Positions 1 to 12,073 of a stretch of DNA of 12,073 nucleotides are shown piece after piece. This DNA is from a virus. Position numbers and translations under genes: made by a program. Below the pieces are notes generated by a model that was given only the letters and a program-made list of their open reading frames with translations, was not told the DNA's origin and made no database searches. The first letter of the stretch is position 1. Every line of letters begins with the position of its first letter. The stretch lies in UHGV virus genome UHGV-0372056; one strand, given 5' to 3'.

Positions 1-960
1 GGCACTGGCTGAGGCCTGCCCGGCACTTGTTGACGCGGCACTGGCAGATAATGCAGCCGCTGTTTTTGAACCTGCCGCAGCTGAGGCGCTCTGTCCCGCT
101 GCTGTTTCAGAAGACTTAGCGTTCGTCTCGGACGTTTTTGCCGCCTTCGCGGAATTTCCTGCCGCCGTTGCCGAGGAAGCTGCACTACTGGCACTTGATG
201 ATGCATTCGTTTCTGAAGATTTCGCTGCCTCTTTTGAGGCCGCCGCACCCCGTGCCGAGGTGGCAGCTTCTGACGCCTTCGTGGTCGCTGTGGATGCAGA
301 AGTGGCTGCCGATTTTTGTGATGCTGCGGCATTCGTTTCTGACGTTTTCGCGGCACTGGCGCTGGTAGCTGCCGCGCTTTTTGATGACTCTGCAGCAGCA
401 GCACTTTTTGCTGCTTCACGGGCCTTTGTCGATGCCGTTCCTGCGCTGGAAGACGCTGACTGAGCCGACGACGCGGCCTGTCCGGCTGACGTGCTGGCGG
501 CACGTGCTGAGGCTGCAGCATCGGTTGCATGAGTTGCCGCCTCGCTGGCTGATGCACTGGCATCGCTGGCTGATTTTTTCGCGGCTGCCGTATTCTGTGC
601 AACCGCGGAGGCGTTACGTGACACCTCTTCCACCATCTGCTCAAAGCGGCGCAGTGCCTCCGGTCGGACATCATCCTCCGTCATGGCACCGAGAAAATCA
701 TTCAGCGTACCTGGTCTGGAACCTTCATAGACGGTAATGGTCCCGGCATGTGAAGGCGGAAAACCTTCAACCAGCAGGGTGACGCTGTACTGACCATGCT
801 CAACATCCATGCTGTAACGTCCGGCTTCATCCGGATTTTCAGAGGCCACCGTGTTCACCACCACCGTGCTGCTGGTTCGTCTGGCCTTCAGCACAATGGT
901 GCAGTTCTGTACTGGTTTTCCTGTGCCATCTTTAAGCACGCCAGAAATTTTTACTGTCAT
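1..960 (-). CDS. stf: Side tail fibre protein Stf, N-terminal 320 codons; gene continues beyond the left edge of the window
   Basis: Minus-strand translation from ATG at 960 gives MTVKISGVLKDGTGKPVQNCTIVLKARR...VYEGSRPGTLNDFLGAMTEDD..., closely matching the recalled lambda/Rac Stf N-terminus (MAVKISGVLKDGTGKPVQNCTIQLKARR...), followed by the characteristic Ala/Ser/Thr-rich low-complexity repeats. Open through position 1 in frame (960 nt = 320 codons). Confidence 0.85.
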   Translation of the reverse strand, partial: MTVKISGVLKDGTGKPVQNCTIVLKARRTSSTVVVNTVASENPDEAGRYSMDVEHGQYSVTLLVEGFPPSHAGTITVYEGSRPGTLNDFLGAMTEDDVRPEALRRFEQMVEEVSRNASAVAQNTAAAKKSASDASASASEAATHATDAAASARAASTSAGQAASSAQSASSSAGTASTKAREAAKSAAAAESSKSAAATSASAAKTSETNAAASQKSAATSASTATTKASEAATSARGAAASKEAAKSSETNASSSASSAASSATAAGNSAKAAKTSETNAKSSETAAGQSASAAAGSKTAAALSASAASTSAGQASASA

Positions 961-1032: not shown

Positions 1033-1290
1033 TCAAACGCAGTTCACCCCATAAGGTGGATGAACCTGCGTATCATAACAATATTTACAGAAGATAAATC
1101 GGCGTCTGTTGTCAGAAACGGTATCTGCATCCAGCTCTTCACCGGTATACTCTGCATCCGTCAGATAAACCGCGATCGCAGGAAAATCCTCTTCGTCAAA
1201 AACAACGGGGCGACCATCAAACAGCGTCGCCCCGTGTTCATGCTGCTCGAGTGCATCCAGCACTGCGGCACGAATGTCAGTGTGTTTCAT
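1033..1290 (-). CDS. U: Tail terminator protein U, truncated: first ~57 aa are U-like, last ~28 aa are unrelated read-through (probable pseudogene)
   Basis: MKHTDIRAAVLDALEQHEHGATLFDGRPVVFDEEDFPAIAVYLTDAEYTGEELDADT matches recalled lambda U (MKHTELRAAVLDALEKHDTGATFFDGRPAVFDEADFPAVAVYLTGAEYTGEELDSDT). Similarity stops abruptly at about plus 1119/1120, after which the ORF reads Cys-rich sequence to a stop. Lambda U is 131 aa. Confidence 0.7.
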   Translation of the reverse strand: MKHTDIRAAVLDALEQHEHGATLFDGRPVVFDEEDFPAIAVYLTDAEYTGEELDADTVSDNRRRFIFCKYCYDTQVHPPYGVNCV

Positions 1291-1862
1291 CGTTTTATCG
1301 CAATCCTCAGTTGTTGTTTCAGCGCGTATGCCAGTTCTTTAGGCAGGCGTTCACGCCGGATACGGTCAACATTCTCATCAAATGCCTGTTTCAGTGGGGC
1401 CGCCATCGGGATTTTCACCACCTGAATGGGAAGGCGATTACGCTTTTTCCTTCCCTTGTCGTCATTGCCCTCCTCATATCTGGCCTGGGGAAGACGTTGC
1501 ATAACATGCCAGCGCCCATTATTTAATCGCTGGATAAATGCCCGCTGATAACGATGCTGACCGGCTTTGAGTATGCTGTCCGGACGACGCCCCAGCATTC
1601 TGATCCCCAGCTTAATCACAGGGAGATCACCGCGGTTAACGATAATTCTGGCATTCGGATTTCTGACCGTCGCCCGTTTCAGTCTGGACCGTTCCTTTAC
1701 CAGTTTCCGTCTCACCCTGGTTTCCCGGGCAACCTGTGACGAAGACTGATTAATCGCCGTTATGGCCACGCGGTTAATGGTCATTGCAGAAGCAGCCGGA
1801 ATGGCGTTTTTACGAACCCGGCTCAGATTGTCAATCGCCTGATCAAGCCCTTTTATCGCCAT
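1287..1862 (-). CDS. Z: Tail completion protein Z
   Basis: 191 aa, MAIKGLDQAIDNLSRV...RRERLPKELAYALKQQLRIAIKR, collinear with recalled lambda Z (192 aa, MAIKGLEQAVENLSRI...RRERLPKELGYALQHQLRMVIKR). Stop overlaps the U start by 4 nt. Confidence 0.9.
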   Translation of the reverse strand: MAIKGLDQAIDNLSRVRKNAIPAASAMTINRVAITAINQSSSQVARETRVRRKLVKERSRLKRATVRNPNARIIVNRGDLPVIKLGIRMLGRRPDSILKAGQHRYQRAFIQRLNNGRWHVMQRLPQARYEEGNDDKGRKKRNRLPIQVVKIPMAAPLKQAFDENVDRIRRERLPKELAYALKQQLRIAIKR

Positions 1863-1876
1863 AATTCACCCTGCGT

Positions 1877-2230
1877 TTATCGTCGCCGGTTAACTGCGGG
1901 TGGTTGCCCACGGTTGAGCCAGAGATAACAGCTGCCCCCGTCATCCGGAGAAACACGATCCACCCAGAATGTCTCACCATTAATGGTCAGCGTGTCACCA
2001 CGCCGCACGGCACGAACCGTATCCGTCCGCACAAATAATGACGGGCAGCTTCCTTCAATACGGACCCCGCCACCGGCAAACCCCAGCGACTCCGGATCGT
2101 CAAAAACCCCCTGAACTTCGCTGCCACACTGTGCCCCCGAGGTGAACTGCGCACAGAGTCCCATCACTTCAACGATCGTACTGTCTACCCCGGCGAGGGC
2201 AGCATCAAAGGCATTCTGAAAATCACGCAT
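1877..2230 (-). CDS. FII: Head-tail joining protein FII
   Basis: 117 aa, MRDFQNAFDAALAGVDSTI...FWVDRVSPDDGGSCYLWLNRGQPPAVNRRR; near-identical C-terminus to recalled lambda FII (...FWVDRVSPDDGGSCHLWLGRGVPPAVNRRR). Confidence 0.9.
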   Translation of the reverse strand: MRDFQNAFDAALAGVDSTIVEVMGLCAQFTSGAQCGSEVQGVFDDPESLGFAGGGVRIEGSCPSLFVRTDTVRAVRRGDTLTINGETFWVDRVSPDDGGSCYLWLNRGQPPAVNRRR

Positions 2231-2606
2231 ATTCAGCCGTTCCGTGCTGTATCATGGCCGTTGCCAGTGATGATGGCACCAGAACACGCATACCCCGTAA
2301 CGCCAGCTCAACGGGACGACCTGTCTCCGGGCAATACCCCATTACTTGCAGGCACTTCCGTACCCGGACGGCTTTAACATCATCCGGAGCATCCGTGTTG
2401 TTCAACTGCTCACCATCGTCTGTGTGATTTTGATCAGCCCCGCTCTCATCAGAGTGCATAATGCCCTCCGGGGAAACAGCAAGCTCCTCTTCCCACTCAG
2501 ACACACGTTGCGCAATATCCGCAGCACTCCCCGACATATCCGCCTCGCGCCCCAGCAGGCCAGCCAGTTGACGAAGACGATTCAGATTTTCTTCTTTTGT
2601 TGCCAT
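2223..2606 (-). CDS. FI: DNA-packaging protein FI
   Basis: Start chosen at MATKEENLNRLRQLAG... (ATG at 2606, with AGGAGG about 7 nt upstream on the minus strand) rather than the longest ORF start at 2654, which would run through the E-FI hairpin. Resembles recalled lambda FI N-terminus (MTKDELIARLRSLGEQL...); acidic middle region is typical. 8-nt overlap with the FII start. Confidence 0.8.
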   Translation of the reverse strand: MATKEENLNRLRQLAGLLGREADMSGSAADIAQRVSEWEEELAVSPEGIMHSDESGADQNHTDDGEQLNNTDAPDDVKAVRVRKCLQVMGYCPETGRPVELALRGMRVLVPSSLATAMIQHGTAEYA

Positions 2607-2620
2607 CTCAGCCTCCTGTG

Positions 2621-2649
2621 AAAAAAGACACGGGGGCATTTCGCCCCCG
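2621..2649 (-). terminator. Intrinsic terminator/attenuator-like hairpin between E and FI
   Basis: Minus-strand RNA CGGGGGC-GAAAU-GCCCCCG followed by UGUCUUUUUU. Lambda has an analogous GC hairpin in the E-FI intergenic region. Confidence 0.6.
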
Positions 2650-2657
2650 CTCACGGA

Positions 2658-3331
2658 TTATTTCACCTGCACCACCACAAACTCATCCGGATCCGGCAGC
2701 ACCATCAGCGGTGCGGACTGCGTCATGGTGAATTCACGGGCCGGATCGCCCACAGTCAGCCAGTGTTTCGGATAACGGGAAGAGGCCACCACACCTTCGG
2801 ACAACGCCTGCGCATCCTGAATGGCACCATAGCAACGAATGCCCTCTGCTGCCGTATTCCCCAGGACCAGTGTGCCCACCGGCAGATAACGTTTTTCGGT
2901 ACCGTCGTCTGCCACATAAGACGTTTTCGCCACCACAATGGCCAGATCGCCGTAATACCCCTTGAAAGACACCACCGCTCCCAGGTCTTTCACTGCCGTT
3001 TCGAGTTGTGAATTTGAGCCGCGACGGGTAGCTGAGCCGGATCTTCACCAGGAAGGCGCTCAACCGCCTGCTGGTAATTAAATTCGTGTTTGGGCTTGAC
3101 GTAGCCCGGACGTAACACGCGGGTTTCACCACCGCGATGGCGAAGCACTTTTCCTTCAACGATCGGGGAGACATAGGCCGCCACCGGCGTTTTTCCGGTA
3201 ATTTTGTCCAGCATCACCTCTTCGGTGTGGAAATTCACCGTACGGCGGAAAAACAGCTCCAGAAACAGCGCACGGAATTTAACTTTTTGTTCGGTATAAC
3301 CGAGTAACTGGCGGGTCGTAAACAATCCCAT
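2658..3331 (-). pseudogene. E: Major capsid protein E, disrupted by an internal out-of-frame deletion (N-terminal and C-terminal fragments in different frames)
   Basis: ORF 2990..3331 (MGLFTTRQLLGYTEQKVKF...VSPIVEGKVLRHRGGE...PGYVKPKHE...RLPGEDPAQLP) matches recalled lambda E residues ~1-105 then diverges and stops. ORF 2658..2993 (...KDLGAVVSFKGYYGDLAIVV...YPKHWLTVGDPAREFTMTQSAPLMVLPDPDEFVVVQVK) matches the lambda E C-terminus. Junction lies near plus 3029/3030 with a frame change. Total 224 aa of E-like sequence versus 341 aa in lambda. Confidence 0.8.
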
Positions 3332-3350
3332 AAATCAGTTCCTTTCATTA

Positions 3351-3370
3351 AGAAATCAGTCAGGCCAACG
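3351..3370 (-). promoter_or_regulatory. Hairpin in the D-E intergenic region (possible attenuator)
   Basis: Inverted repeat caggcca/tggcctg with a 6-nt loop; lambda also carries a hairpin between D and E. The downstream U-tract is weak. Confidence 0.3.
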
Positions 3371-3388
3371 CGGTGGCCTGATAACGTG

Positions 3389-3736
3389 TTACGGCAGCGC
3401 CGCGTGACTCAGGGCACTGCCGGTAAAGGCGTTGGCCTTTTTGTGTTCATCCACACTGTCAGGCCAGCGGATTGCCTCCGTCGCAAAGGTCCCCGACTTG
3501 TAATAGGTCAGCACCGCCTCTGTGCCTTCAAGCGGCAGTACCAGTATGCCAACCGCACTACCGGCTTTCTGTCCGTCCCAGACCACCAGTTTCCCGGTGG
3601 CCCCATCCAGCATCAGGGGTGTCAGTGCCGGTGTTGCCGAGGAAATCCCGCTGCTGCCTGTGGCGGTGTGAGCCGGATCATTACCGGCAAAAATACGTAC
3701 TTCCGCACGCTGTTCAGTGATGGTTTTCGTCACCAT
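3389..3736 (-). CDS. D: Head decoration protein D
   Basis: 115 aa, MVTKTITEQRAEV...TPLMLDGATGKLVVWDG...; resembles recalled lambda gpD ([52 protein letters not shown]...), similar length. Confidence 0.85.
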   Translation of the reverse strand: MVTKTITEQRAEVRIFAGNDPAHTATGSSGISSATPALTPLMLDGATGKLVVWDGQKAGSAVGILVLPLEGTEAVLTYYKSGTFATEAIRWPDSVDEHKKANAFTGSALSHAALP

Positions 3737-3772
3737 ATTGTTAAAACCTCGTATTGATGTTCAGCACTGACT

Positions 3773-4375
3773 TCATGGCATGGCCATGAGCATTTTCACG
3801 TCCGCATCACCGTCTTCTGACGCCTGTGACACGCCCCCCTGGACCGCAGCCGGTGAATGGTTCGCCATGAAATGTTCAAACAGGGCGGTTGTGGATGCAG
3901 AGACCGGTTCTGCCTTACCTGATCCCGCAGCCAGCACAGCCCGGGCGCTCTCCACGGTCATTCCCGGGCAGGCCGCCAGTTTTTCAGCCTGCGCTTCTGC
4001 CCCTTTTGCCTCATCCAGGGCCATGATCTGATCACGAAGTGAGGGCCCGGCATCCGCCAGTGGTGCAGCCGCCAGGATCGGGCGGGCTTTTTCCACCGTC
4101 ATCTCCGGCATCGCCGCCAGCGTTGCCGCCAGTTGTTCACGACCGTTCGCTTCTTCACACGCCATAATGCGATCGGCTTCACTCTGCGCGGATGCCACCG
4201 GCTGCTGCGGTGCCGCCGCGGCCAGAATCGCCCGGGCCTGTTCAACGCTCATGCCCTGTTGCCCTGCCAGCATCGTGGCAAGCTGTTCACGTCCTTTCGC
4301 TTCCTGGCATGTCAGGATCCCCATCACTCGCTGGTTCTCCTGCACGGCGGCTTCCGTTGCAGTTAATTGCGGCAT
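3773..4375 (-). CDS. Nu3: Scaffolding protein Nu3, nested in-frame in the 3' part of C
   Basis: Internal ATG at 4375 preceded by GGAGG (minus strand gtcagaGGAGGcactATG), in frame with C; product MPQLTATEAAVQENQRVMGILTCQEAKGRE... parallels lambda Nu3 (internal start, ...ENSRIMGILNCEEAHGRE...). Nested initiation is inferred by analogy with lambda. Confidence 0.6.
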   Translation of the reverse strand: MPQLTATEAAVQENQRVMGILTCQEAKGREQLATMLAGQQGMSVEQARAILAAAAPQQPVASAQSEADRIMACEEANGREQLAATLAAMPEMTVEKARPILAAAPLADAGPSLRDQIMALDEAKGAEAQAEKLAACPGMTVESARAVLAAGSGKAEPVSASTTALFEHFMANHSPAAVQGGVSQASEDGDADVKMLMAMP

Positions 4376-5278
4376 AGTGCCTCCTCTGACATTACTGTTC
4401 AGCGCCGTGGCCATCACACTGATGGCATCCGACGCATTGATTAATTCATCCGCCAGCCCGGCCTCAATGCCGGACTGACCTTCAAAAACGGCGGCCTCTG
4501 TTCCCGTGACCGCATCCACAGACAACCCGGTATACATCGCCACTTTTTCGGCAAACATCCGGTGCGCCGCATCAATCCGCTGCTGCATATCCTGGCGAAC
4601 CTCTGCCGGCAACGCTTCAAACTGATTGCCATCCACCTTGTGCGCCCCGGCATAAATCAGCGTGATATCCACACCGGCCTGCGCCAGATGACCGGCATAG
4701 CTGACATGGCTCATCATCACGCCAATGGAGCCGATACGGGATGTCTGGGTAACCAGCCGTCGGGAGCAGGCCGACGCCAGCAGCATGGCTGCAGAACAGG
4801 CCGTGTCATTGCACAGTGCCCAGACCGGCTTCTGCTGACGGAGGCGGTAAATCATGTCAGCGCAGTCAAACGCGCCGGCGGCCTGCCCGCCCGGACTGTC
4901 AATGTCCAGCAGTATGCCCCGCACCTGGCTATCTGCCATTGCCTGCTGAAGACAGGCGACAATGCCGTCATAGCCAGTCATTCCGGAAAATGGCCGCATC
5001 CCCCCCAGCCGGTGCACCAGCGTGCCGGTCACCGGCAGTACCGCAATACCGTTCACCACCCGGTAAACACGGGCCGGTCGTTTACCTCCGGCCATGTACT
5101 CGTCCGTTTCAGCCAGCATTCCGGGAGCATCAAGCTGTACCTGCTGTTGCGGTACCGAAAGACTTGCTGCCCCCATCTCGCGCCCCAGCGCGCAAAAGAA
5201 AACCCGCGCATAGGCGGGCTCCAGAAGCAGCGGTTCATTGAATGCTGCTGCAATAATGTGTGAAAGATTACGTCTCAC
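3773..5278 (-). CDS. C: Head maturation protease / minor capsid protein C (S49 ClpP-like peptidase) with C-terminal scaffold domain
   Basis: 501 aa; ...AFNEPLLLEPAYARVFFCAL...NGIAVLPVTGTL...SGMTGYDGI...GILLDIDSPGG...AFDCADMI...KPVWALCND...RRLVTQTSRIGSIGVMM... is collinear with recalled lambda gpC. The C-terminal part holds three copies of a ~41-aa motif where lambda has one. Confidence 0.9.
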   Translation of the reverse strand: MRRNLSHIIAAAFNEPLLLEPAYARVFFCALGREMGAASLSVPQQQVQLDAPGMLAETDEYMAGGKRPARVYRVVNGIAVLPVTGTLVHRLGGMRPFSGMTGYDGIVACLQQAMADSQVRGILLDIDSPGGQAAGAFDCADMIYRLRQQKPVWALCNDTACSAAMLLASACSRRLVTQTSRIGSIGVMMSHVSYAGHLAQAGVDITLIYAGAHKVDGNQFEALPAEVRQDMQQRIDAAHRMFAEKVAMYTGLSVDAVTGTEAAVFEGQSGIEAGLADELINASDAISVMATALNSNVRGGTMPQLTATEAAVQENQRVMGILTCQEAKGREQLATMLAGQQGMSVEQARAILAAAAPQQPVASAQSEADRIMACEEANGREQLAATLAAMPEMTVEKARPILAAAPLADAGPSLRDQIMALDEAKGAEAQAEKLAACPGMTVESARAVLAAGSGKAEPVSASTTALFEHFMANHSPAAVQGGVSQASEDGDADVKMLMAMP

Positions 5279-6860
5279 GTGGTGTTGTCTCCTCTTCCGG
5301 CCTGCGACTCTCCGCTATCTGCTGCTGATACGCCTGCGCTATCCACACCGGACGTGAGAGTCCGGCTTTTTCCCGCTCTGCAGATTCCCTGACCTGCTGG
5401 CGGAAAATGTCCTGATAATCCTCGCCCATCAGCGCCAGCTCTTTCTCATACGTGCTCAGTCCGGCCTCAATGCGCATCACTGATTCCTGAACCTCCTTGA
5501 GCCCGTCAATGGCCATTCTTCCGGCTCCAATCCACTCAGCCCGTGACCAGGCTGATCGCGCCTGATAAAAATCAAAACGTGCCCGTGGCGGACGAATAAT
5601 CCCCCGAAGAAGTGCCTCTTCCAGCCAGCAGGAAAACATCTGCGTGGCCAGCCGGGACGCAATAAATTTTCGCCGCCCCATAAAATAGCGCCACGACTCA
5701 TTGGCGGATGCGCGGGCACTTGAATAACTGACCTTCGAGTAATCACGGGACAACTGTTCGTAGGAAACGCCAAGACCGGCGGCGATATACCGCAGCAGCG
5801 CCTGTTCAAGCGCCGAAAATCCATTGTCTGAATCCTGCGCGGTCTGAAGTTTCAGATCATCACCGGGGAAAAGGTGCGGAATTTTGACACCGCCCAGCGT
5901 CACGCTATTCGTGTCATACCAGGTGGAGAACTTATCCAGAATATTAATAAGCGGATTATCCTTCTGCCCCTGCGGCGCACCGGCGATATATTCAAAGGCC
6001 TTTTCGGTATCAAGGTCACTTTCAATCGTCGCTGCATACATCGCCTTCACTATGGCCGACTGAAGCTGTGTTGCCTGCAGGGAATCGAGCATCTTCAGCC
6101 GTTCCATTACGCTGTAAAACTGATTGGCCCCACGGGTCTGCCCGTCCTCCACCGGCTCGAAAATATGCAGCATGGCCGGACGCCCGGTGGGAAGTTCACG
6201 CGGGATCCGTTCCCATCGTCCACTCCCAGAGAACGGAAAATCATCCTCACAGATATGGTACGCAACGGCACGGCCATATCGATCGACCTCCACACCGGCC
6301 CGCAGAAAACGGTTCCCGATACCGTGTCCTGGCGTGTCCACCCGTTTCGGACTCACGGCTTTAAAACGCGTACGAAACAGTTGCGTGCTCTCCGTATCCC
6401 AGACCGGCTGCACAAAGATTTCGCCGTTAAACGCATGAACGCCCACACCTTCACGGATAAATTCCGTAAACGTGCGTTTCCCTTCCACGTCGATCTCGCC
6501 AAACATCCCTTCGGCGTATTCCGACCAGGCCGCCTCCACCTCATCGACAAAACTTTTTGCCGCAGTCTCCCGCATCCCCAGCCAGCGCCAGTTCGGACGG
6601 TAGCTGATCAGAAACATATGCCCGACAATATGATCCTTATGCAGGGCCACCGCATTAGCCGCTATCCCGTTATTGCGCACCAGATCATCTGCCCGGGCAT
6701 TCCCCAGACGCAACGCAGGCAGCAGGGCTGCATCGGCACTCTGCGCCGGTGGCAACCACTCCGCCATTTGCCCGCCAAATCCTGCGCCGCCCCCGTTGTA
6801 GCTGAGACTCTCACGAAGCGGAACGCCGTTCACATCAATCAGGACAGGCGTTCGTTTCAT
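5268..6860 (-). CDS. B: Portal protein B
   Basis: 530 aa; MKRTPVLIDVNGVPLRESLSYNGGGAGFGGQ...IFEPVEDGQTRGANQFYSVMERLKMLD...SAIVKAMYAATIESDLD... matches recalled lambda gpB along its length (lambda 533 aa). Overlaps the W stop by 4 nt and the C start by 11 nt. Confidence 0.95.
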   Translation of the reverse strand: MKRTPVLIDVNGVPLRESLSYNGGGAGFGGQMAEWLPPAQSADAALLPALRLGNARADDLVRNNGIAANAVALHKDHIVGHMFLISYRPNWRWLGMRETAAKSFVDEVEAAWSEYAEGMFGEIDVEGKRTFTEFIREGVGVHAFNGEIFVQPVWDTESTQLFRTRFKAVSPKRVDTPGHGIGNRFLRAGVEVDRYGRAVAYHICEDDFPFSGSGRWERIPRELPTGRPAMLHIFEPVEDGQTRGANQFYSVMERLKMLDSLQATQLQSAIVKAMYAATIESDLDTEKAFEYIAGAPQGQKDNPLINILDKFSTWYDTNSVTLGGVKIPHLFPGDDLKLQTAQDSDNGFSALEQALLRYIAAGLGVSYEQLSRDYSKVSYSSARASANESWRYFMGRRKFIASRLATQMFSCWLEEALLRGIIRPPRARFDFYQARSAWSRAEWIGAGRMAIDGLKEVQESVMRIEAGLSTYEKELALMGEDYQDIFRQQVRESAEREKAGLSRPVWIAQAYQQQIAESRRPEEETTPRET

Positions 6861-7063
6861 AACCTCACTCCCAGCGGACGACGGCGACGTCGGGTTGTCC
6901 CCAGTACCGACTCCGCATCATTGATCGCCCGGTTAAGCTCATCCAGAGAAGCCGCCGTATATTCAATTCTGCGACCATCTTTCTGGACAGACACCACCCG
7001 TTTACCGGTTAATAAATCAAGGCGCGCCTGACGCAGCGCCTGTAGTTCAGCGACTGTAACCAT
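6857..7063 (-). CDS. W: Head-tail connector / DNA stabilisation protein W
   Basis: 68 aa; ...LLTGKRVVSVQKDGRRIEYTAASLDELNRAINDAE... versus recalled lambda W ...[35 protein letters not shown]...; same length. Confidence 0.85.
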   Translation of the reverse strand: MVTVAELQALRQARLDLLTGKRVVSVQKDGRRIEYTAASLDELNRAINDAESVLGTTRRRRRPLGVRL

Positions 7064-8975
7064 TCACTCCTCCGGACAGCTTCGCTGCCAGTTCTTTAAG
7101 GGTTGGCCGGGTCGTCTCTTCTTCCCGGGATTTTGCCAGTACAGCCAGATCAAGCTGCCAGCGTTGCACGGACACACGTAATGCCGCATAGGCATACACC
7201 AGACAGTCCAGCGCTTCGTTACGCCGCTTTTTGTTATCCCACAGCAGACGCATCTTTCCTTTTTCCCACTTCTCCACAAGCTCTTCCGCGACCAGTTGCT
7301 GCGCCTCTGTCTGCGAAAAAATCTCCGGATCATCAGGAAAACGGATGGCATACGACGTGGCTTCATCCGCAGGCGTGGGATCGGCTTTCATACGGGCATA
7401 GAGAATTTCTTTTGCGGTGTCCGTCCCCACTTCACACAGATACACGCCCCGCTGATTGCGGGTTTTCGGCATGGTGATCACCGGCTTGCCATAGACAGAT
7501 GCGCCTTTTACCGGCAGCACCCGGAAAACACCGTGTTTTTTTGACCTCTGATAGACAATTTCACCATCGATCCCCCCGGTGTCCCAGCAGACACGGGAAA
7601 TGGTCATTTCGGTTCCGTCTGCATGGCAGTATTTTTTGTTGATCGCCGCATCCACACGTAACAGCGTCTCTTCCTCATCGGGACGGCCCATAATGATGAT
7701 TTTATCCACCAGAAAAGCTTCCTCTCCCGGTGCCCATCCCCAGACATACATCTCAAAACGGTTTCGCTGCGAGTCAATGCCCGCCGTCAGATAAACCACC
7801 CGGGCTGGCACCGCCGCCGTGTAATGCACGACCTTATCCATCAGTACCTGGTGATCGAGTTTTTCGCCCACGGCCTCTTCCCAGGTCTCGCCCAGCGTGG
7901 TGTTCACAAAGGTTTTCAGGCCGTTGGGATCTTTCAGTGCATCCAGCCAGTCATAGACTATCTGTACCCAGGTGGTGAACGGACTGTACGCCGTCCAGAT
8001 ATGGAACGTGATGGAGCGCGGCGGCGGAATTTCATTATCCGCGGCGCTGAAAAACGTCAGACCGTCACGGGTCCACATCCCCGTGTTTTCACAGATCCAC
8101 CGCCCGTTGCTCTGGTCAAGCTCAGACTGATGGAACACGCAGCCATGATGTTCACAGAGGTAGAAAACGCTTTCGGGGCTGTCCTTCTCCCATTTTAGGC
8201 CAAAAGGCGTGGATTCATCGCCAAATTTCAGATACTGCTCCTCCCCACAGTGTGGGCAGGGCACATAAAAACGCATGAAATGCGCCGACTCGTTGGCCGC
8301 TTTTTCGATCTGGCAGGTGCCTTTGATTTTAGGCGTCGAGCCGCGAATGGATTTGGGCCATACAGAGCCCTCAATACGTTTATCCCCAAGCAGGGTTGGC
8401 GAACCCTCTTTTTCGACATCCGGTTCGAACGAGGAAAGTTCGTCATAGCAGACCACGTCCACGGATTTTTCACGGTAGTTTTTAGCGGCAGCCCCGCCCA
8501 GGCACCAGAAGCCCACGCCCGATGAAAAACGTTTCAGCGTGAGGGTATTATCACGATGTTTACGCCCAAACCACGGTGCAAGATCGAGTAAAACCGGCAC
8601 ATCCCTGATCGTGGGTTCCACATGAGATTTCATAAAATCTTCAGCAGCAGAATCCGTGGGCTGGAAAAGAAGGCTGTTGCGTGATTTATGCTCAATAAAA
8701 TAAGCCTCCACTCCCAGCAACATCTTTGTATAACCAACACGGGCAGATTTAATCAGATTAACAGTGCGGATCCGGTCATTCCCCATGCTGTTCATGATGG
8801 CAACCTGAAACGGCAGTGTTTCCCACCGCCCCGGGGTGTAAGATGACTCTTTCGGAAGGTAATAATGTCGATCTGCCCACTGAACTGTCGTCAGAGGGAC
8901 AGGAATTTTTAGCGCAAGGAGGCCGGTTGCTATCGCTCCTGCAGAATTAGCCGCCCTCAGTTCGTCTGAAATCAT
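7047..8975 (-). CDS. A: Terminase large subunit A
   Basis: Matches recalled lambda gpA over nearly its whole length ([33 protein letters not shown]..., [66 protein letters not shown]...). Start placed at ATG 8975 (MISDEL..., analogous to lambda MNISNS..., overlapping the Nu1 3' end); the longest ORF would start at 9017. Confidence 0.9.
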
Positions 8976-9495
8976 CAATCCACCTGCGCACATTCTCACC
9001 GGCTTCAGAAGCCACATCGGATGCTTTCGCGATTTCAGTTTTCACAGCATCAAGATGTACGGGTGATATATCAGGGTATTTACGCTGCAGTGTCTGAGGG
9101 ACACGGACAAGGATCCCTGATATATTCTGTGCCACTCGCTGAAAGATGTAGGTAAATAACTCCGTCTCGAGGACAAGGCCTTCCTCACGAGCATTTTTCA
9201 GCTCCTGTGCATCGGCCTGTGCCTTCGTCAGTCGGTAACGTTCGTAATCAATGGTGCCGGGCTGAAGGTCTGATTCGCTGGCAGCCCTCAAATCCTCGAT
9301 CTCTTTACGGAGTTTTTCGTTTTCAATATCAGCTTCCCTCTGCGCATACCACTGAATGGCAGCAGTTGTATCAAAAACTGATTCAGTCCCTTTCCCTCCA
9401 CCAGAAACTAGTGGTAACCCCTGACTCTGCCAGGCGGTGATGGTCCTGACATCAACGCCAAAAATATCGGCCAGTTTTTTCTTATTGACGTTCAT
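8947..9495 (-). CDS. Nu1: Terminase small subunit Nu1
   Basis: 182 aa; the N-terminal ~105 aa ([36 protein letters not shown]...[47 protein letters not shown]) match recalled lambda Nu1, while the C-terminal third is diverged. GGGGGAG precedes the ATG. Confidence 0.85.
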
Positions 9496-9499
9496 ACAC

Positions 9500-9676
9500 T
9501 CCCCCGGGAACCAGAAAGGATCTGAAAATGGCGTTTTCTAACAAAAACAGCCTTTGTCAGATCCTTTTATATTTTTAAAATTCTATTGATAATCAATCAG
9601 TTAAAAAGAAGAAGAACGGATCTGATTTTTCCCTAAAAATTTTCATAAATAGCGAAAACCCGCGAGGTCGCCGCCC
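9500..9676 (-). other. cos: cos site: cosN (9665..9676) plus cosB with three putative Nu1 R-elements
   Basis: Plus 9665..9676 aggtcgccgccc is the reverse complement of lambda's 12-nt cohesive end GGGCGGCGACCT. The adjacent minus-strand sequence CTCGCGGGTTTTCGCTATTTATGAAAATTTT matches the recalled lambda left end. Downstream are a CCGTTCTTCTTC element (R3-like) and an inverted pair AAAGGATCTGA (9515..9527) / TCAGATCCTTT (9557..9568), analogous to lambda R2/R1. Confidence 0.8.
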
Positions 9677-9899
9677 CGTAACGGTCTGGATCACCGGAAA
9701 GGACCCGCCAACGACTTTCGCGTGCAGGCATTAAAAATTTTGCAGTTCCATGCCTAGTTGAAACCTCGATTTCTATAACATCCAATTTTGTAAATTTAGA
9801 TATAGCTCAACTTTTCCCAATGTTTTCAAGTGTATAAAAACAATTGGCGTTACGCCATAACACTATACTTAGGATAAGTAAAGATTTTAAGGAGTTTTA

Positions 9900-10967
9900 A
9901 TGAGTCAACATCAATATTATCCACAGCTGAAATGGAAGCCTGCTGAATATGAATCTCTGATGCTTTTAGATCAAACTACGCTCTCTGGTTTTACTCCGAT
10001 CATTACCATTCCAGACATAGACTGGGATTATGAAAACGAATGCTACAAGAAGAGTTTGAGTTCTTACTTATCTGACTTCGGTATTAACCTTGCGGCATCC
10101 TGGAAAGCCAATCGTCCTGTTTTGCTGGATGTTAAATATTTAGATAAACATGGTTCGAGCCGCCATCATCCTCTAGATATGTGTATCCAAGATGCTAGAG
10201 TAAATGGTAAGGAAATTATCCCTGTTGTTTCTCCCGCATATTCAACAAACTATATACATGCTGTTCAACGCAACTTAATCAATGGGCTCGCTATATCTAT
10301 CACCCCCCAGACATGGCACCAATTCACAAGTCTGGTTAACCACTTAAATATTCATCCTAGTTTAATTGATGTAATCATTGATTTTGGAGATATTCAAAAC
10401 GCAACTGATAGTTTAAAACAACAAGCATTAAGCATGGTCAACACATTATCAGGCCAAGCTCCGTGGAGAAACTTGATTTTATCTTCAACCGCATACCCAG
10501 CATCACAGGCAGGGATACCGCAACATCAAGTTCATCATATTCCGCGCCATGAATACGATCTTTGGATGTACGTAGTACAGAATTTTAGCAATGGAAGAAC
10601 GCCAAGTTTTAGTGATTATCCCACCGCTAGCTCTACCATTACGAGCGTAGACCCACGCTTCATGTCTCAGTATGTCTCAGTGAGATATTCGAACGATACC
10701 TCATGGATCTTTGTAAAAGGTACCGCAGTTAAAGGAAATGGATGGGGCCAAACTAAAAACTTATGTACTACCCTTGTTAGTTCGCCAGAGTATCAAGTCT
10801 TTGGTTCCAAATTTAGTTGGGGGGATGATTACATTTACCAAAGATCATTAGGCGCTAACAAATCTGGCGGCTCTAAAGAATGGCGTAAAGTTGCACATAC
10901 GCACCATATTACGTTAGTCGTGAGACAGCTTTATTGGTTGGCGCAGACTCAGCCTGCCAAGCCTTAA
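9900..10967 (+). CDS. Hypothetical protein (355 aa), unknown function; cargo gene in the Rz-cos region
   Basis: Long ORF with AGGAG 8 nt upstream of the ATG. AT-rich coding sequence, visibly unlike the flanking phage genes. No N-terminal hydrophobic segment (MSQHQYYPQLKWKPAEYESL...). Aromatic-rich, with His clusters (SSRHHP, QHQVHHIPRH, AHTHHI). I do not recognise it as any lambda gene. Confidence 0.7.
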   Translation: MSQHQYYPQLKWKPAEYESLMLLDQTTLSGFTPIITIPDIDWDYENECYKKSLSSYLSDFGINLAASWKANRPVLLDVKYLDKHGSSRHHPLDMCIQDARVNGKEIIPVVSPAYSTNYIHAVQRNLINGLAISITPQTWHQFTSLVNHLNIHPSLIDVIIDFGDIQNATDSLKQQALSMVNTLSGQAPWRNLILSSTAYPASQAGIPQHQVHHIPRHEYDLWMYVVQNFSNGRTPSFSDYPTASSTITSVDPRFMSQYVSVRYSNDTSWIFVKGTAVKGNGWGQTKNLCTTLVSSPEYQVFGSKFSWGDDYIYQRSLGANKSGGSKEWRKVAHTHHITLVVRQLYWLAQTQPAKP

Positions 10968-11529
10968 CTTTCCAGCCTACGCGTTTCTTTAAGGCTGTTC
11001 TGACTTCAAGCCTGAGATTCGCTATTGGAATATTTTCCGCAATAATATTCCATAACTCAAATCGGGGCTTGCTTTTGATTCCTTTGGAATAGCCCCATCG
11101 TTCAAGTACGTCGATACATTCATCTTTCCAAAGCAATTGAGCGAGCATCAATGTGTCATGGTTTCGATTAAGCTTTTCTCCACGCATGTGCTTTATAAGA
11201 ATGGCGCCTTTTGGCCCAACAGAAACCGTTTTAACGCCCCACCAACCTGGGATTAACTTTAATGCTCCCTCAAGATGTTTCTCAGCTACGACAAGAGTAA
11301 CCTTGTCCATTACAGAAGAATAATGCTTGATTTGAAGAGGCAAACGCTCCAAAGAGTCATATTCACTTTTGAGCTCGTACCCGTGTATAACACCATTTAT
11401 TACAGCAATGTCTGCTCTACTGGCGCCAAGGGATATGGAAAATTCATCGACCACAAGGCAGTCTGGATCTAAATGCGATTCTTTCAAAAGCTTATGATGC
11501 ACCGCGAACCTAACATCTTGATCTTTCAT
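10909..11529 (-). CDS. Hypothetical protein (206 aa) with PD-(D/E)xK-like nuclease motif
   Basis: AAGGAG 7 nt upstream of the ATG at 11529. N-terminal region shows helix, then VVDEF, then RADIAVING, then GYELKS, i.e. the E...D-hydrophobic...E-x-K arrangement of restriction-endonuclease-fold / Hjc-like nucleases. AT-rich; 3' end overlaps the converging 355-aa gene by 59 nt. Confidence 0.7.
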   Translation of the reverse strand: MKDQDVRFAVHHKLLKESHLDPDCLVVDEFSISLGASRADIAVINGVIHGYELKSEYDSLERLPLQIKHYSSVMDKVTLVVAEKHLEGALKLIPGWWGVKTVSVGPKGAILIKHMRGEKLNRNHDTLMLAQLLWKDECIDVLERWGYSKGIKSKPRFELWNIIAENIPIANLRLEVRTALKKRVGWKVKAWQAESAPTNKAVSRLT

Positions 11530-11557
11530 GACTTCTCCTTACTCCCTCCGTTATTGA

Positions 11558-11563
11558 ATTATA
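11558..11563 (-). promoter_or_regulatory. Candidate -10 element (TATAAT) upstream of the 206-aa gene
   Basis: Perfect TATAAT on the minus strand about 29 nt upstream of the ATG at 11529; no convincing -35 hexamer found, so weak. Confidence 0.3.
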
Positions 11564-11880
11564 GCGCACTGCATTTTACTGCATTTGAGAGATTTGACCA
11601 CTTCAATCACAAAATGCTTATCTGCAGCAACAAGATTCATAGCCATACGACTATGGTGATTACCTTTTGTCTGGAAAACTGACCATTCCACGAAGATCAG
11701 ATAGGTCTATAGAATCTTGGTTTGTCATAGCGTTCGCCTTACTTTGAGATGAACCTTTGCTGCATAGGAGATCAGCCCGTCAAGGCTCACCAGCACTAAC
11801 TGACTACTCAAAGGCTCATTCCAAAGGGTTTGGTTCGACGTGGTTGAGTGCACTGCGGTGCGCGGTGAAATACCTGTACA

Positions 11881-11908
11881 AAAATGCCCCGCATCTGCGA
11901 GGCATTTT
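11881..11908 (-). terminator. Hairpin with U-tract downstream of Rz (terminator-like)
   Basis: Minus-strand RNA AAAAUGCCUCGC-AGAU-GCGGGGCAUUUU (about 12 bp stem including one G-U pair) followed by UGU, about 40 nt after the Rz stop. The plus-strand version also ends in UUUU, so it could act in both directions. Confidence 0.4.
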
Positions 11909-11945
11909 CCTGAAAGTCACGTATTAAATTTCAGTGAAATTAAAA

Positions 11946-12073
11946 TTATTTTAAGCACTGCGTCCTGATGTACTCCTGCAGGTAGTTGACCTGCGCGGTT
12001 ATCTTGTCGATTCCACTTCGGAGACGGTAATAATTGAGTTCAGCATCTGCTGTAAGTCTTGGGCTTTCTCCAT
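11946..12073 (-). CDS. Rz: Spanin inner-membrane subunit Rz, C-terminal 41 codons (gene starts beyond the right edge)
   Basis: Frame open from the window edge: ...PRLTADAELNYYRLRSGIDKITAQVNYLQEYIRTQCLK*, matching the recalled lambda Rz C-terminus ...PRLADTAERDYFTLRERLITMQKQLEGTQKYINEQCR*. Confidence 0.7.
   Translation of the reverse strand, partial: GESPRLTADAELNYYRLRSGIDKITAQVNYLQEYIRTQCLK
11999..12073 (-). CDS. Rz1: Spanin outer-membrane lipoprotein Rz1, C-terminal fragment, embedded in Rz in the +1 frame
   Basis: Alternate frame ends ...QQMLNSIITVSEVESTR*, resembling the recalled lambda Rz1 end ...QTPLNGIISPSERG*; its stop lies 53 nt before the Rz stop, as in lambda. Only 24 codons are visible. 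Confidence 0.35.
   Translation of the reverse strand: MEKAQDLQQMLNSIITVSEVESTR

What the first reader, a model, noticed from the sequence alone, without database searches (positions are those of the whole stretch)
2658..3331. Major capsid gene E carries an internal out-of-frame deletion of about 120 codons
The N-terminal ~105 codons and C-terminal ~110 codons of an E homologue are both present, but they are joined near 3029/3030 in different frames and the middle third is missing. Without an intact major capsid protein the prophage cannot assemble heads, even though terminase, portal, protease-scaffold, D and cos look intact.
Basis: partly seen in the sequence, partly recalled or inferred. 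Interest (0 to 1): 0.55.

Follow-up and report, generated by a model that had tools for sequence, protein, structure and literature searches.

The report
Broken capsid gene in decaying prophage
The major capsid gene of an integrated lambda/phage-21-like virus in E. coli has lost 355 internal bases and is dead, and with a second 11-kb deletion of the tail genes this is ordinary prophage decay.

Summary
Window 2658-3331 (minus strand) is a homologue of lambda E / phage 21 gene 7. Near-identical intact copies are 1029 nt (342 codons). Here E nt 303-657 (355 bp, 118 codons plus 1 nt) are missing. The junction lies at window 3029/3030 with only 1 nt of microhomology. The frame shifts, giving 101 native residues, 12 missense residues and a TGA stop. 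The last 123 codons survive untranslated in another frame.

It is not an assembly artefact. The same junction occurs in six independently assembled contigs, four of them 100% identical to the window. It is not a natural short capsid family either. Over 1,500 complete E. coli genomes and isolated phages carry the full-length gene, and none of 5,426 complete genomes has this junction.

It removes the end of U, then V, G, T, H, M, L, K, I, J and lom. The prophage can therefore make neither heads nor tails.

E. coli 20AR0300 carries the same prophage, intact, at the same ompW/yciE-trpA site. It is 99.8-100% identical over the aligned blocks, so the deletions are recent. Interest is low.

The parts
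3030..3331 (-). 5' remnant of the major capsid gene E (E nt 1-302, codons 1-101). ATG at 3331.
   Evidence: Identical over 302 nt to the intact E of L001 and L004. Pfam PF03864 profile positions 1-93.
3029..3030 (-). Deletion junction. 355 bp (E nt 303-657) are missing. One shared base (A on the + strand, T on the coding strand) is the only microhomology.
   Evidence: The longest k-mer shared by the two endpoint regions is 7 nt (CGGCTCA) and is out of register with the junction.
2990..3029 (-). Out-of-frame read-through after the junction: 12 missense codons (PVAAQIHNSKRQ) and a TGA stop at 2990-2992.
   Evidence: Translation.
2658..3029 (-). 3' remnant of E (E nt 658-1029, codons 220-342 plus stop), in a different frame from the 5' remnant. 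The listed 111-aa ORF 2658-2993 starts at internal GTG codon 232, which overlaps the upstream TGA as GTGA.
   Evidence: Pfam PF03864 profile positions 228-329.
3389..3736 (-). Head decoration gene (D / phage 21 shp homologue), full length at 115 aa.
   Evidence: Pfam PF02924. Same length as in L004, L001 and L002.
3773..5278 (-). Head protease/scaffold gene (C/Nu3 homologue, S49 peptidase), full length at 501 aa.
5268..6860 (-). Portal gene (B homologue), 530 aa.
6857..7063 (-). Head-tail joining gene W, 68 aa.
7047..8975 (-). Terminase large subunit (A homologue), 642 aa as annotated in relatives.
8947..9495 (-). Terminase small subunit (Nu1 homologue), 182 aa.
9665..9676 (-). Exact match to the cosN core GGGCGGCGACCT upstream of Nu1.
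   Evidence: 1 match, 0.09 expected by chance.
2223..2606 (-). FI DNA-packaging gene, 127 aa as annotated in relatives.
1877..2230 (-). FII head-tail joining gene, 117 aa.
1287..1862 (-). Minor tail gene Z, 191 aa.
1126..1290 (-). Truncated tail gene U: the first 55 codons only. The ORF then runs on to 1033 through unrelated sequence, 85 aa in all.
   Evidence: Pfam PF06141 profile positions 1-61 of 130. Alignment to L004.
1120..1125 (.). Junction of the second deletion, 11,256 bp (L004 2184-13439), which removes the 3' part of U, V, G, T, H, M, L, K, I, J and all but the last 14 nt of lom. One copy of a 6-bp direct repeat (GGTATC on the + strand) is retained.
1..960 (-). 5' part of the side tail fibre gene (1008 aa in relatives). 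It runs off the left end of the window.
   Evidence: 100% identity to L004 1059-2183, annotated 'prophage tail fiber N-terminal domain-containing protein'.

Best explanation
This is a pseudogene made by a spontaneous 355-bp internal deletion in the major capsid gene of a lambdoid prophage whose head genes are of the phage 21 type.

Shown:
- The deletion removes E nt 303-657 (residues 102-219), with only one base of homology at the endpoints.
- It shifts the reading frame, so translation ends after 101 native and 12 missense residues.
- The same lineage carries a second deletion of 11,256 bp between 6-bp GGTATC repeats. It removes the tail genes from mid-U through J, plus lom.
- A close relative carries the same prophage intact at the same chromosomal site.

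Inferred:
- Both deletions arose by illegitimate recombination or replication slippage. This rests on the 1-nt and 6-nt junction homologies.
- The 113-residue product keeps the N-arm and E-loop but lacks the spine helix and most of the A-domain of the HK97 fold. It therefore cannot form capsomers, and the prophage can make neither heads nor tails.
- The remaining late genes are intact only because the deletions are recent. There is no evidence that they are kept for a purpose.
For: - Size, position and frame of the deletion.
- The intact homologue aligns end to end and almost without gaps with lambda gpE (PDB 7vi9, E 2e-135), so the lost part equals gpE residues 102-219.
- Intact 342-codon copies occur in isolated phages (PhiR12_2_star 99.1%, phage 21 92.6%) and in more than 1,500 complete E. 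coli genomes.
- Strain 20AR0300 has the same prophage, intact, next to ompW'/yciE-yciF-yciG-trpA. The deletion-bearing contig L005 is collinear with it at 99.8-100% identity over every aligned block, chromosomal flank included, apart from the two deletions.
- The exact 113-aa product and junction are found on contigs from ENA metagenome assemblies, Logan SRA assemblies and NCBI. L005-L008 are 100% identical to the window. L005, L006 and L007 also span the tail junction. One Logan contig is shared by 12 samples.
- Other prophages of this type show different, independent losses in the same module. L017 has a truncated terminase joined directly to Z, L014 has an integrase in place of E, and P0015 is a different frameshifted E.
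- The literature reports preferential loss of packaging and lytic genes, and retention of tail fibre genes, in incomplete prophages (PMC7744054 abstract).
Against: - Nothing in the data contradicts the explanation.
- Loss of capsid function is inferred from the fold, not measured.
- Only 10 kb on either side of E could be read in the deletion lineage. Whether the immunity, replication and integrase modules are intact is therefore unknown.
- L009 and L010 carry the same junction with clustered sequence differences. The allele has thus persisted through some diversification or recombination. That is compatible with neutral persistence but does not prove it.
Confidence: 0.93

Rival explanations
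1. Assembly or sequencing artefact: the real genome has a full-length E, and the 355 bp were lost by mis-assembly or repeat collapse.
For: No complete RefSeq E. coli genome, GTDB representative, JGI metagenome contig or IMG/VR contig has the junction, so the allele is rare.
Against: - The identical junction occurs in six contigs from different samples and different assembly sources (ENA metagenome assemblies, Logan assemblies).
- One Logan contig recurs in 12 samples, and the exact protein is also listed from NCBI.
- No repeat flanks the deleted segment that could cause collapse. There is 1 nt of homology, and the best shared k-mer is 7 nt and out of register.
Confidence: 0.02
2. A natural short capsid protein, or a gene rejoined by programmed frameshifting, that yields a functional product of about 224 residues.
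For: The C-terminal frame is open from just upstream of the junction, so a -1 shift in a short stretch would fuse the halves.
Against: - Every close relative is 342 codons.
- 134 of 329 Pfam profile positions would still be missing.
- I found no X XXY YYZ slippery heptamer on reading the sequence between the junction and the stop.
- The allele is confined to one rare lineage.
Confidence: 0.01
3. The defective prophage is retained for a function. One version is a helper-dependent element that keeps cos and terminase and is packaged by a co-resident phage-21-type phage. Another is that the 113-aa N-arm/E-loop fragment poisons capsid assembly of superinfecting relatives.
For: - cosN, Nu1, A, W, portal, C and D are intact.
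- Head genes of this type are present in about 35% of complete E. coli genomes, so helpers are common.
- The allele is found in many samples and in two sequence variants.
Against: - Intactness is explained by recency. There are only 6 substitutions over the window's 12 kb relative to the intact prophage in 20AR0300.
- No satellite-type hijacking genes were seen.
- The junction is absent from IMG/VR viral contigs.
- Other prophages of the family show unrelated, haphazard losses.
- There is no evidence that the fragment is expressed or stable.
Confidence: 0.04

Closest known systems
Lambda gpE and phage 21 gene 7 major capsid protein (Pfam PF03864 Phage_cap_E, HK97 fold; PDB 7vi9, 7sj5)
   Same: - The intact allele of this gene aligns with lambda gpE over residues 1-341 (E 2e-135).
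- The region is 92.6% identical in DNA to phage 21.
- The gene order is the same: D/shp, E, FI.
   Different: Residues 102-219 are deleted and the frame is broken. Only 101 native residues can be translated from the normal start.
Cryptic or defective lambdoid prophages of E. coli (Rac, DLP12, Qin and e14 in K-12, from my own knowledge; 'grounded' prophages, PMC6379469, title and abstract only)
   Same: It is a chromosomally integrated lambdoid element that has lost essential virion genes by deletion. It keeps the tail fibre gene and accessory genes, the pattern reported for incomplete prophages (PMC7744054).
   Different: It is much younger. It is 99.8-100% identical over the aligned blocks to an intact prophage at the same site in another strain, and only two lesions were seen in the 12-kb window.
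Intact sister prophage in E. coli 20AR0300 (NZ_CP195498.1) and isolated phage PhiR12_2_star (PV340551.1)
   Same: - The 20AR0300 prophage has the same gene order, the same integration site (ompW'/yciE-trpA) and 6 substitutions across the window's 12 kb.
- PhiR12_2_star is 99.1% identical over the D-E-FI region.
   Different: Both have the full 1029-nt E gene, and they show the full-length tail genes U, V, G and T. 20AR0300 also carries H, M, L, K, I, J and lom.

Membership tests
Phage major capsid protein E family (PF03864; lambda gpE / phage 21 gp7) | Significant sequence match to the family profile | tested here: met
   The two remnants score 59.2 and 79.1 bits against a 22.9-bit cut-off.
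Phage major capsid protein E family (PF03864; lambda gpE / phage 21 gp7) | One continuous reading frame of about 340 codons covering the whole profile | tested here: not met
   Profile positions 94-227 are absent and the two halves are in different frames. The locus is a pseudogene derived from a member, not a functional member.
Phage major capsid protein E family (PF03864; lambda gpE / phage 21 gp7) | Position between the decoration gene (D/shp) and FI in the head operon | tested here: met
   D at 3389-3736, the E remnant at 2658-3331 and FI at 2223-2606, as in L001, L002 and L004.
Phage major capsid protein E family (PF03864; lambda gpE / phage 21 gp7) | Assembles into T=7 capsid shells | not testable with these tools
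   This needs expression and electron microscopy. Loss of residues 102-219 makes it very unlikely, but that is an inference from the HK97 fold.
Defective (cryptic) lambdoid prophage | Integrated in the host chromosome | tested here: met
   In L005 the element adjoins yciE, yciF, yciG and trpA, collinear with strain 20AR0300.
Defective (cryptic) lambdoid prophage | Loss or disruption of genes essential for virion production, relative to intact relatives | tested here: met
   E is frameshifted by a 355-bp deletion, and the 3' part of U through lom is lost in an 11,256-bp deletion.
Defective (cryptic) lambdoid prophage | Fails to yield infectious particles on induction | not testable with these tools
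   This needs induction and a plaque assay.
cos-type phage satellite (PICI-like or P4-like helper-dependent element) | Dedicated genes that redirect helper capsid assembly or packaging, and a small satellite-sized genome | tested here: inconclusive
   No such genes are seen in the window or in the 20-kb loci L005 and L006. The element is a full lambdoid prophage minus two deletions. The rest of the element could not be read.

The most novel reading that the evidence does not exclude
The doubly deleted prophage is not just debris. It keeps cos, terminase, portal, protease and the decoration gene. It might therefore persist as a helper-dependent element that is packaged and transferred by co-resident phage-21-type phages supplying E and tails. 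Alternatively, its 113-residue N-arm/E-loop fragment might interfere with capsid assembly of related superinfecting phages.
Probability: 0.04. Interest if true: 0.4.

Novelty: already known. Interest (0 to 1): 0.1.

Why it matters
It matters little beyond annotation. The locus should be called an E pseudogene. The prophage should be scored as defective, and prophage-prediction tools that count 'head, portal, terminase' hits might otherwise score it as intact. The pair formed by this lineage and the intact prophage in strain 20AR0300 is a clean, datable example of the first steps of prophage decay. It shows two deletions with 1-nt and 6-nt junction homology and otherwise near-identical sequence. 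That could be useful as a natural control in studies of prophage inactivation, or as a clonal marker for this E. coli lineage in gut metagenomes.

Tried and rejected
1. I looked for the junction elsewhere. Complete E. coli genomes gave none with a 161-nt query or a clean 60-nt query. The 39-nt junction sequence gave none in the GTDB representative genomes, JGI metagenome contigs or IMG/VR. Only the exact-protein look-up found it.
2. I looked for a flanking direct repeat that could explain the E deletion or an assembly collapse. There is only 1 nt in register, and a 7-mer (CGGCTCA) out of register.
3. I tried to read further upstream in the deletion lineage through the sce7726/cII-like protein. 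It returned other strains only, all with intact or differently decayed head modules. The state of the immunity, replication and integrase modules in this lineage stays unknown.
4. I considered frameshift rescue. No slippery heptamer is seen, and the core of the fold would still be missing.
5. I considered translational re-initiation at the GTGA overlap at 2990-2993. No convincing Shine-Dalgarno sequence lies upstream, and a 111-residue C-terminal piece could not complement the loss. I rejected it as unlikely but did not test it.
6. Literature searches for gpE domain boundaries, the PhiR12 phages and P4 gop-beta-cII gave only general background. One search failed on a term that was too short.
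7. The PDB sequence match to lambda gpE already fixes which residues are lost.

Full report
**What is in the window**

All phage genes lie on the minus strand, in the order of the lambda left arm.

| Feature | Window coordinates |
|---|---|
| cosN core GGGCGGCGACCT | 9665-9676 |
| Nu1 | 8947-9495 |
| A | 7047-8975 |
| W | 6857-7063 |
| portal B | 5268-6860 |
| protease/scaffold C-Nu3 | 3773-5278 |
| decoration gene D/shp | 3389-3736 |
| two ORFs with capsid-E similarity | 2658-3331 |
| FI | 2223-2606 |
| FII | 1877-2230 |
| Z | 1287-1862 |
| shortened U | 1033-1290 |
| start of a side tail fibre gene | 960 down to 1 |

The head module is of the phage 21 type. The D-E-FI region is 92.6% identical to phage 21 (genes shp and 7). 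It is 99.1% identical to the isolated phage PhiR12_2_star.

**Checking the observation**

- The 113-aa ORF 2990-3331 matches Pfam Phage_cap_E profile positions 1-93 of 329. The 111-aa ORF 2658-2993 matches positions 228-329.
- Against 5,426 complete E. coli genomes, window 2400-3600 finds 1,559 genomes with at least 80% coverage. The best are 99.8% identical. They always align in two pieces that span 1556 bases for 1201 query bases.
- Direct comparison with the intact 1029-nt gene of strain Ecol_AZ146 shows that the first 302 nt are identical. The last 373 nt carry two substitutions, and the two arms overlap by one base.
- The deletion is therefore 355 bp (E nt 303-657).
- Because 355 = 3x118 + 1, the frame shifts. 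Codon 101 remains Leu. Twelve missense codons (PVAAQIHNSKRQ) follow, then TGA at 2990-2992.
- Codons 220-342 are still present but in another frame.
- The endpoints share one base only. The longest k-mer common to both endpoint regions is 7 nt and out of register.

**Is it real?**

The exact 113-aa product was looked up in the large assembly collection. The look-up read nine contigs and showed six places.

- Four are ENA metagenome assemblies and two are Logan assemblies of SRA runs. One Logan contig is shared by 12 samples.
- The cluster look-up also lists NCBI as a source of the same sequence, on a contig of 153 kb.
- L005, L006, L007 and L008 are 100% identical to the window over 6.7-12 kb, E junction included.
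- L009 and L010 have the same junction but carry clustered differences at 2967-2985 and 3816-3948. They are a second sequence variant of the same allele.

Independent assemblies with no flanking repeat rule out an assembly artefact. The allele is rare. It is absent from all complete RefSeq E. coli genomes, GTDB representative genomes, JGI metagenome contigs and IMG/VR.

Aligning the whole window to E. coli 20AR0300 (L004) gives three collinear blocks:

| Window block | L004 block | Identity |
|---|---|---|
| 1-1125 | 1059-2183 | 100% |
| 1120-3030 | 13434-15344 | 4 substitutions |
| 3030-12073 | 15699-24742 | 2 substitutions |

- Besides the E deletion there is a second deletion of 11,256 bp (L004 2184-13439). 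It is bounded by a 6-bp direct repeat, GGTATC, of which one copy remains at window 1120-1125.
- It removes U from codon 56 onward, then V, G, T, H, M, L, K, I, J and all but the last 14 nt of lom. The truncated U ends up next to the tail fibre gene.
- No complete genome has this junction either.
- L005, L006 and L007 carry both junctions.

**Ancestral state**

- In 20AR0300 the same prophage sits beside a truncated ompW, yciE, yciF, yciG and trpA.
- The deletion-bearing contig L005 is collinear with it into that chromosomal flank, at 99.8-100% identity over every aligned block, apart from the two deletions.
- The intact prophage at the same site in a close relative shows that both deletions are recent losses in one lineage.

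**Consequence (inferred)**

- The intact allele aligns almost without gaps with lambda gpE (PDB 7vi9, residues 1-341, E 2e-135). The lost segment therefore corresponds to gpE residues 102-219.
- The HK97 fold consists of an N-arm, an E-loop, a P-domain with a long spine helix and an A-domain with a five-stranded sheet. [quoted passage not shown]
- The surviving 101 residues would cover the N-arm and E-loop. In HK97-fold proteins the spine helix follows the E-loop, so the deletion should take out the spine helix and a large part of the A-domain. This is my inference from the fold, not a measurement. Such a fragment cannot build capsomers.
- With the tail genes also gone, induction could at most give lysis without virions. 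The lysozyme and Rz genes are present upstream in L005.

**Rivals**

- A natural short capsid family is excluded. All close relatives are 342 codons.
- Frameshift rescue is unlikely. I saw no slippery heptamer between the junction and the stop, and 41% of the profile would still be missing.
- A retained function cannot be excluded. It could be helper-dependent mobilisation through the intact cos and terminase, or a dominant-negative capsid fragment. The intactness of the neighbouring genes is sufficiently explained by recency.
- Other prophages of the family show unrelated losses in the same module. In L017 a truncated terminase is joined to Z. In L014 an integrase replaces E. P0015 is a different frameshifted E.

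**Comparison with the known**

This is the ordinary early stage of prophage decay. [quoted passage not shown] That fits the second deletion, which stops just before the tail fibre gene. The locus is a pseudogene derived from a member of the gpE/gp7 family, not a functional member.

**Verdict**

- The kind of event is already known.
- Interest is about 0.1.

Noticed in passing
window 1033-1290, junction at 1120-1125: A second, much larger deletion of 11,256 bp between 6-bp GGTATC direct repeats. It removes the 3' part of U, then V, G, T, H, M, L, K, I, J and nearly all of lom, and joins U codon 55 to the lom-stf intergenic region. It is absent from all 5,426 complete E. coli genomes and present in L005, L006 and L007.
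   Followed up: yes
window 9900-10967 (+) and 10909-11529 (-): A convergent, overlapping gene pair lies between cos and the lysis genes. The partners are a 'beta family protein' (Pfam Beta_protein; PADLOC PD-Lambda-2_C 4e-32 and beta 3.5e-10) and an 'sce7726 family' / P4 cII-like protein (PADLOC cll 4e-31). It resembles two of the three genes of the P4 gop-beta-cII locus, a comparison from my own knowledge, and no gop was seen. The pair is very common at this position in lambdoid prophages, including an Stx phage (L013). The index lists it in 8,256 blocks of the collection.
   Followed up: partly
L009 and L010 (window equivalents 2967-2985 and 3816-3948): Two metagenome contigs carry the identical E junction but differ from the window in tight clusters of substitutions. 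These look like recombination patches from related prophages, or strain mixing in the assembly. If real, the deletion allele exists in at least two sequence backgrounds.
   Followed up: partly
L017 12530-14674; L014 16289-19626: Other prophages with the same cos-proximal module show independent decay. In L017 a truncated terminase large subunit (531 aa) is followed directly by Z. In L014 the C and E genes are missing and an integrase gene follows D.
   Followed up: no
window 2990-2993 (-): The TGA that ends the frameshifted N-terminal ORF overlaps an in-frame GTG of the C-terminal remnant (GTGA). In principle this could allow termination-reinitiation and give a 111-aa C-terminal fragment. I saw no clear ribosome-binding site upstream.
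   Followed up: no
L011 8646-8771; L005 about 17100-20342: The prophage is integrated at a truncated ompW gene next to yciE, yciF, yciG and the trp operon. Near-identical head and tail modules in other strains sit at a different site (yecD/aspS in strain 09-02E, L003). This shows module exchange among lambdoid prophages.
   Followed up: partly
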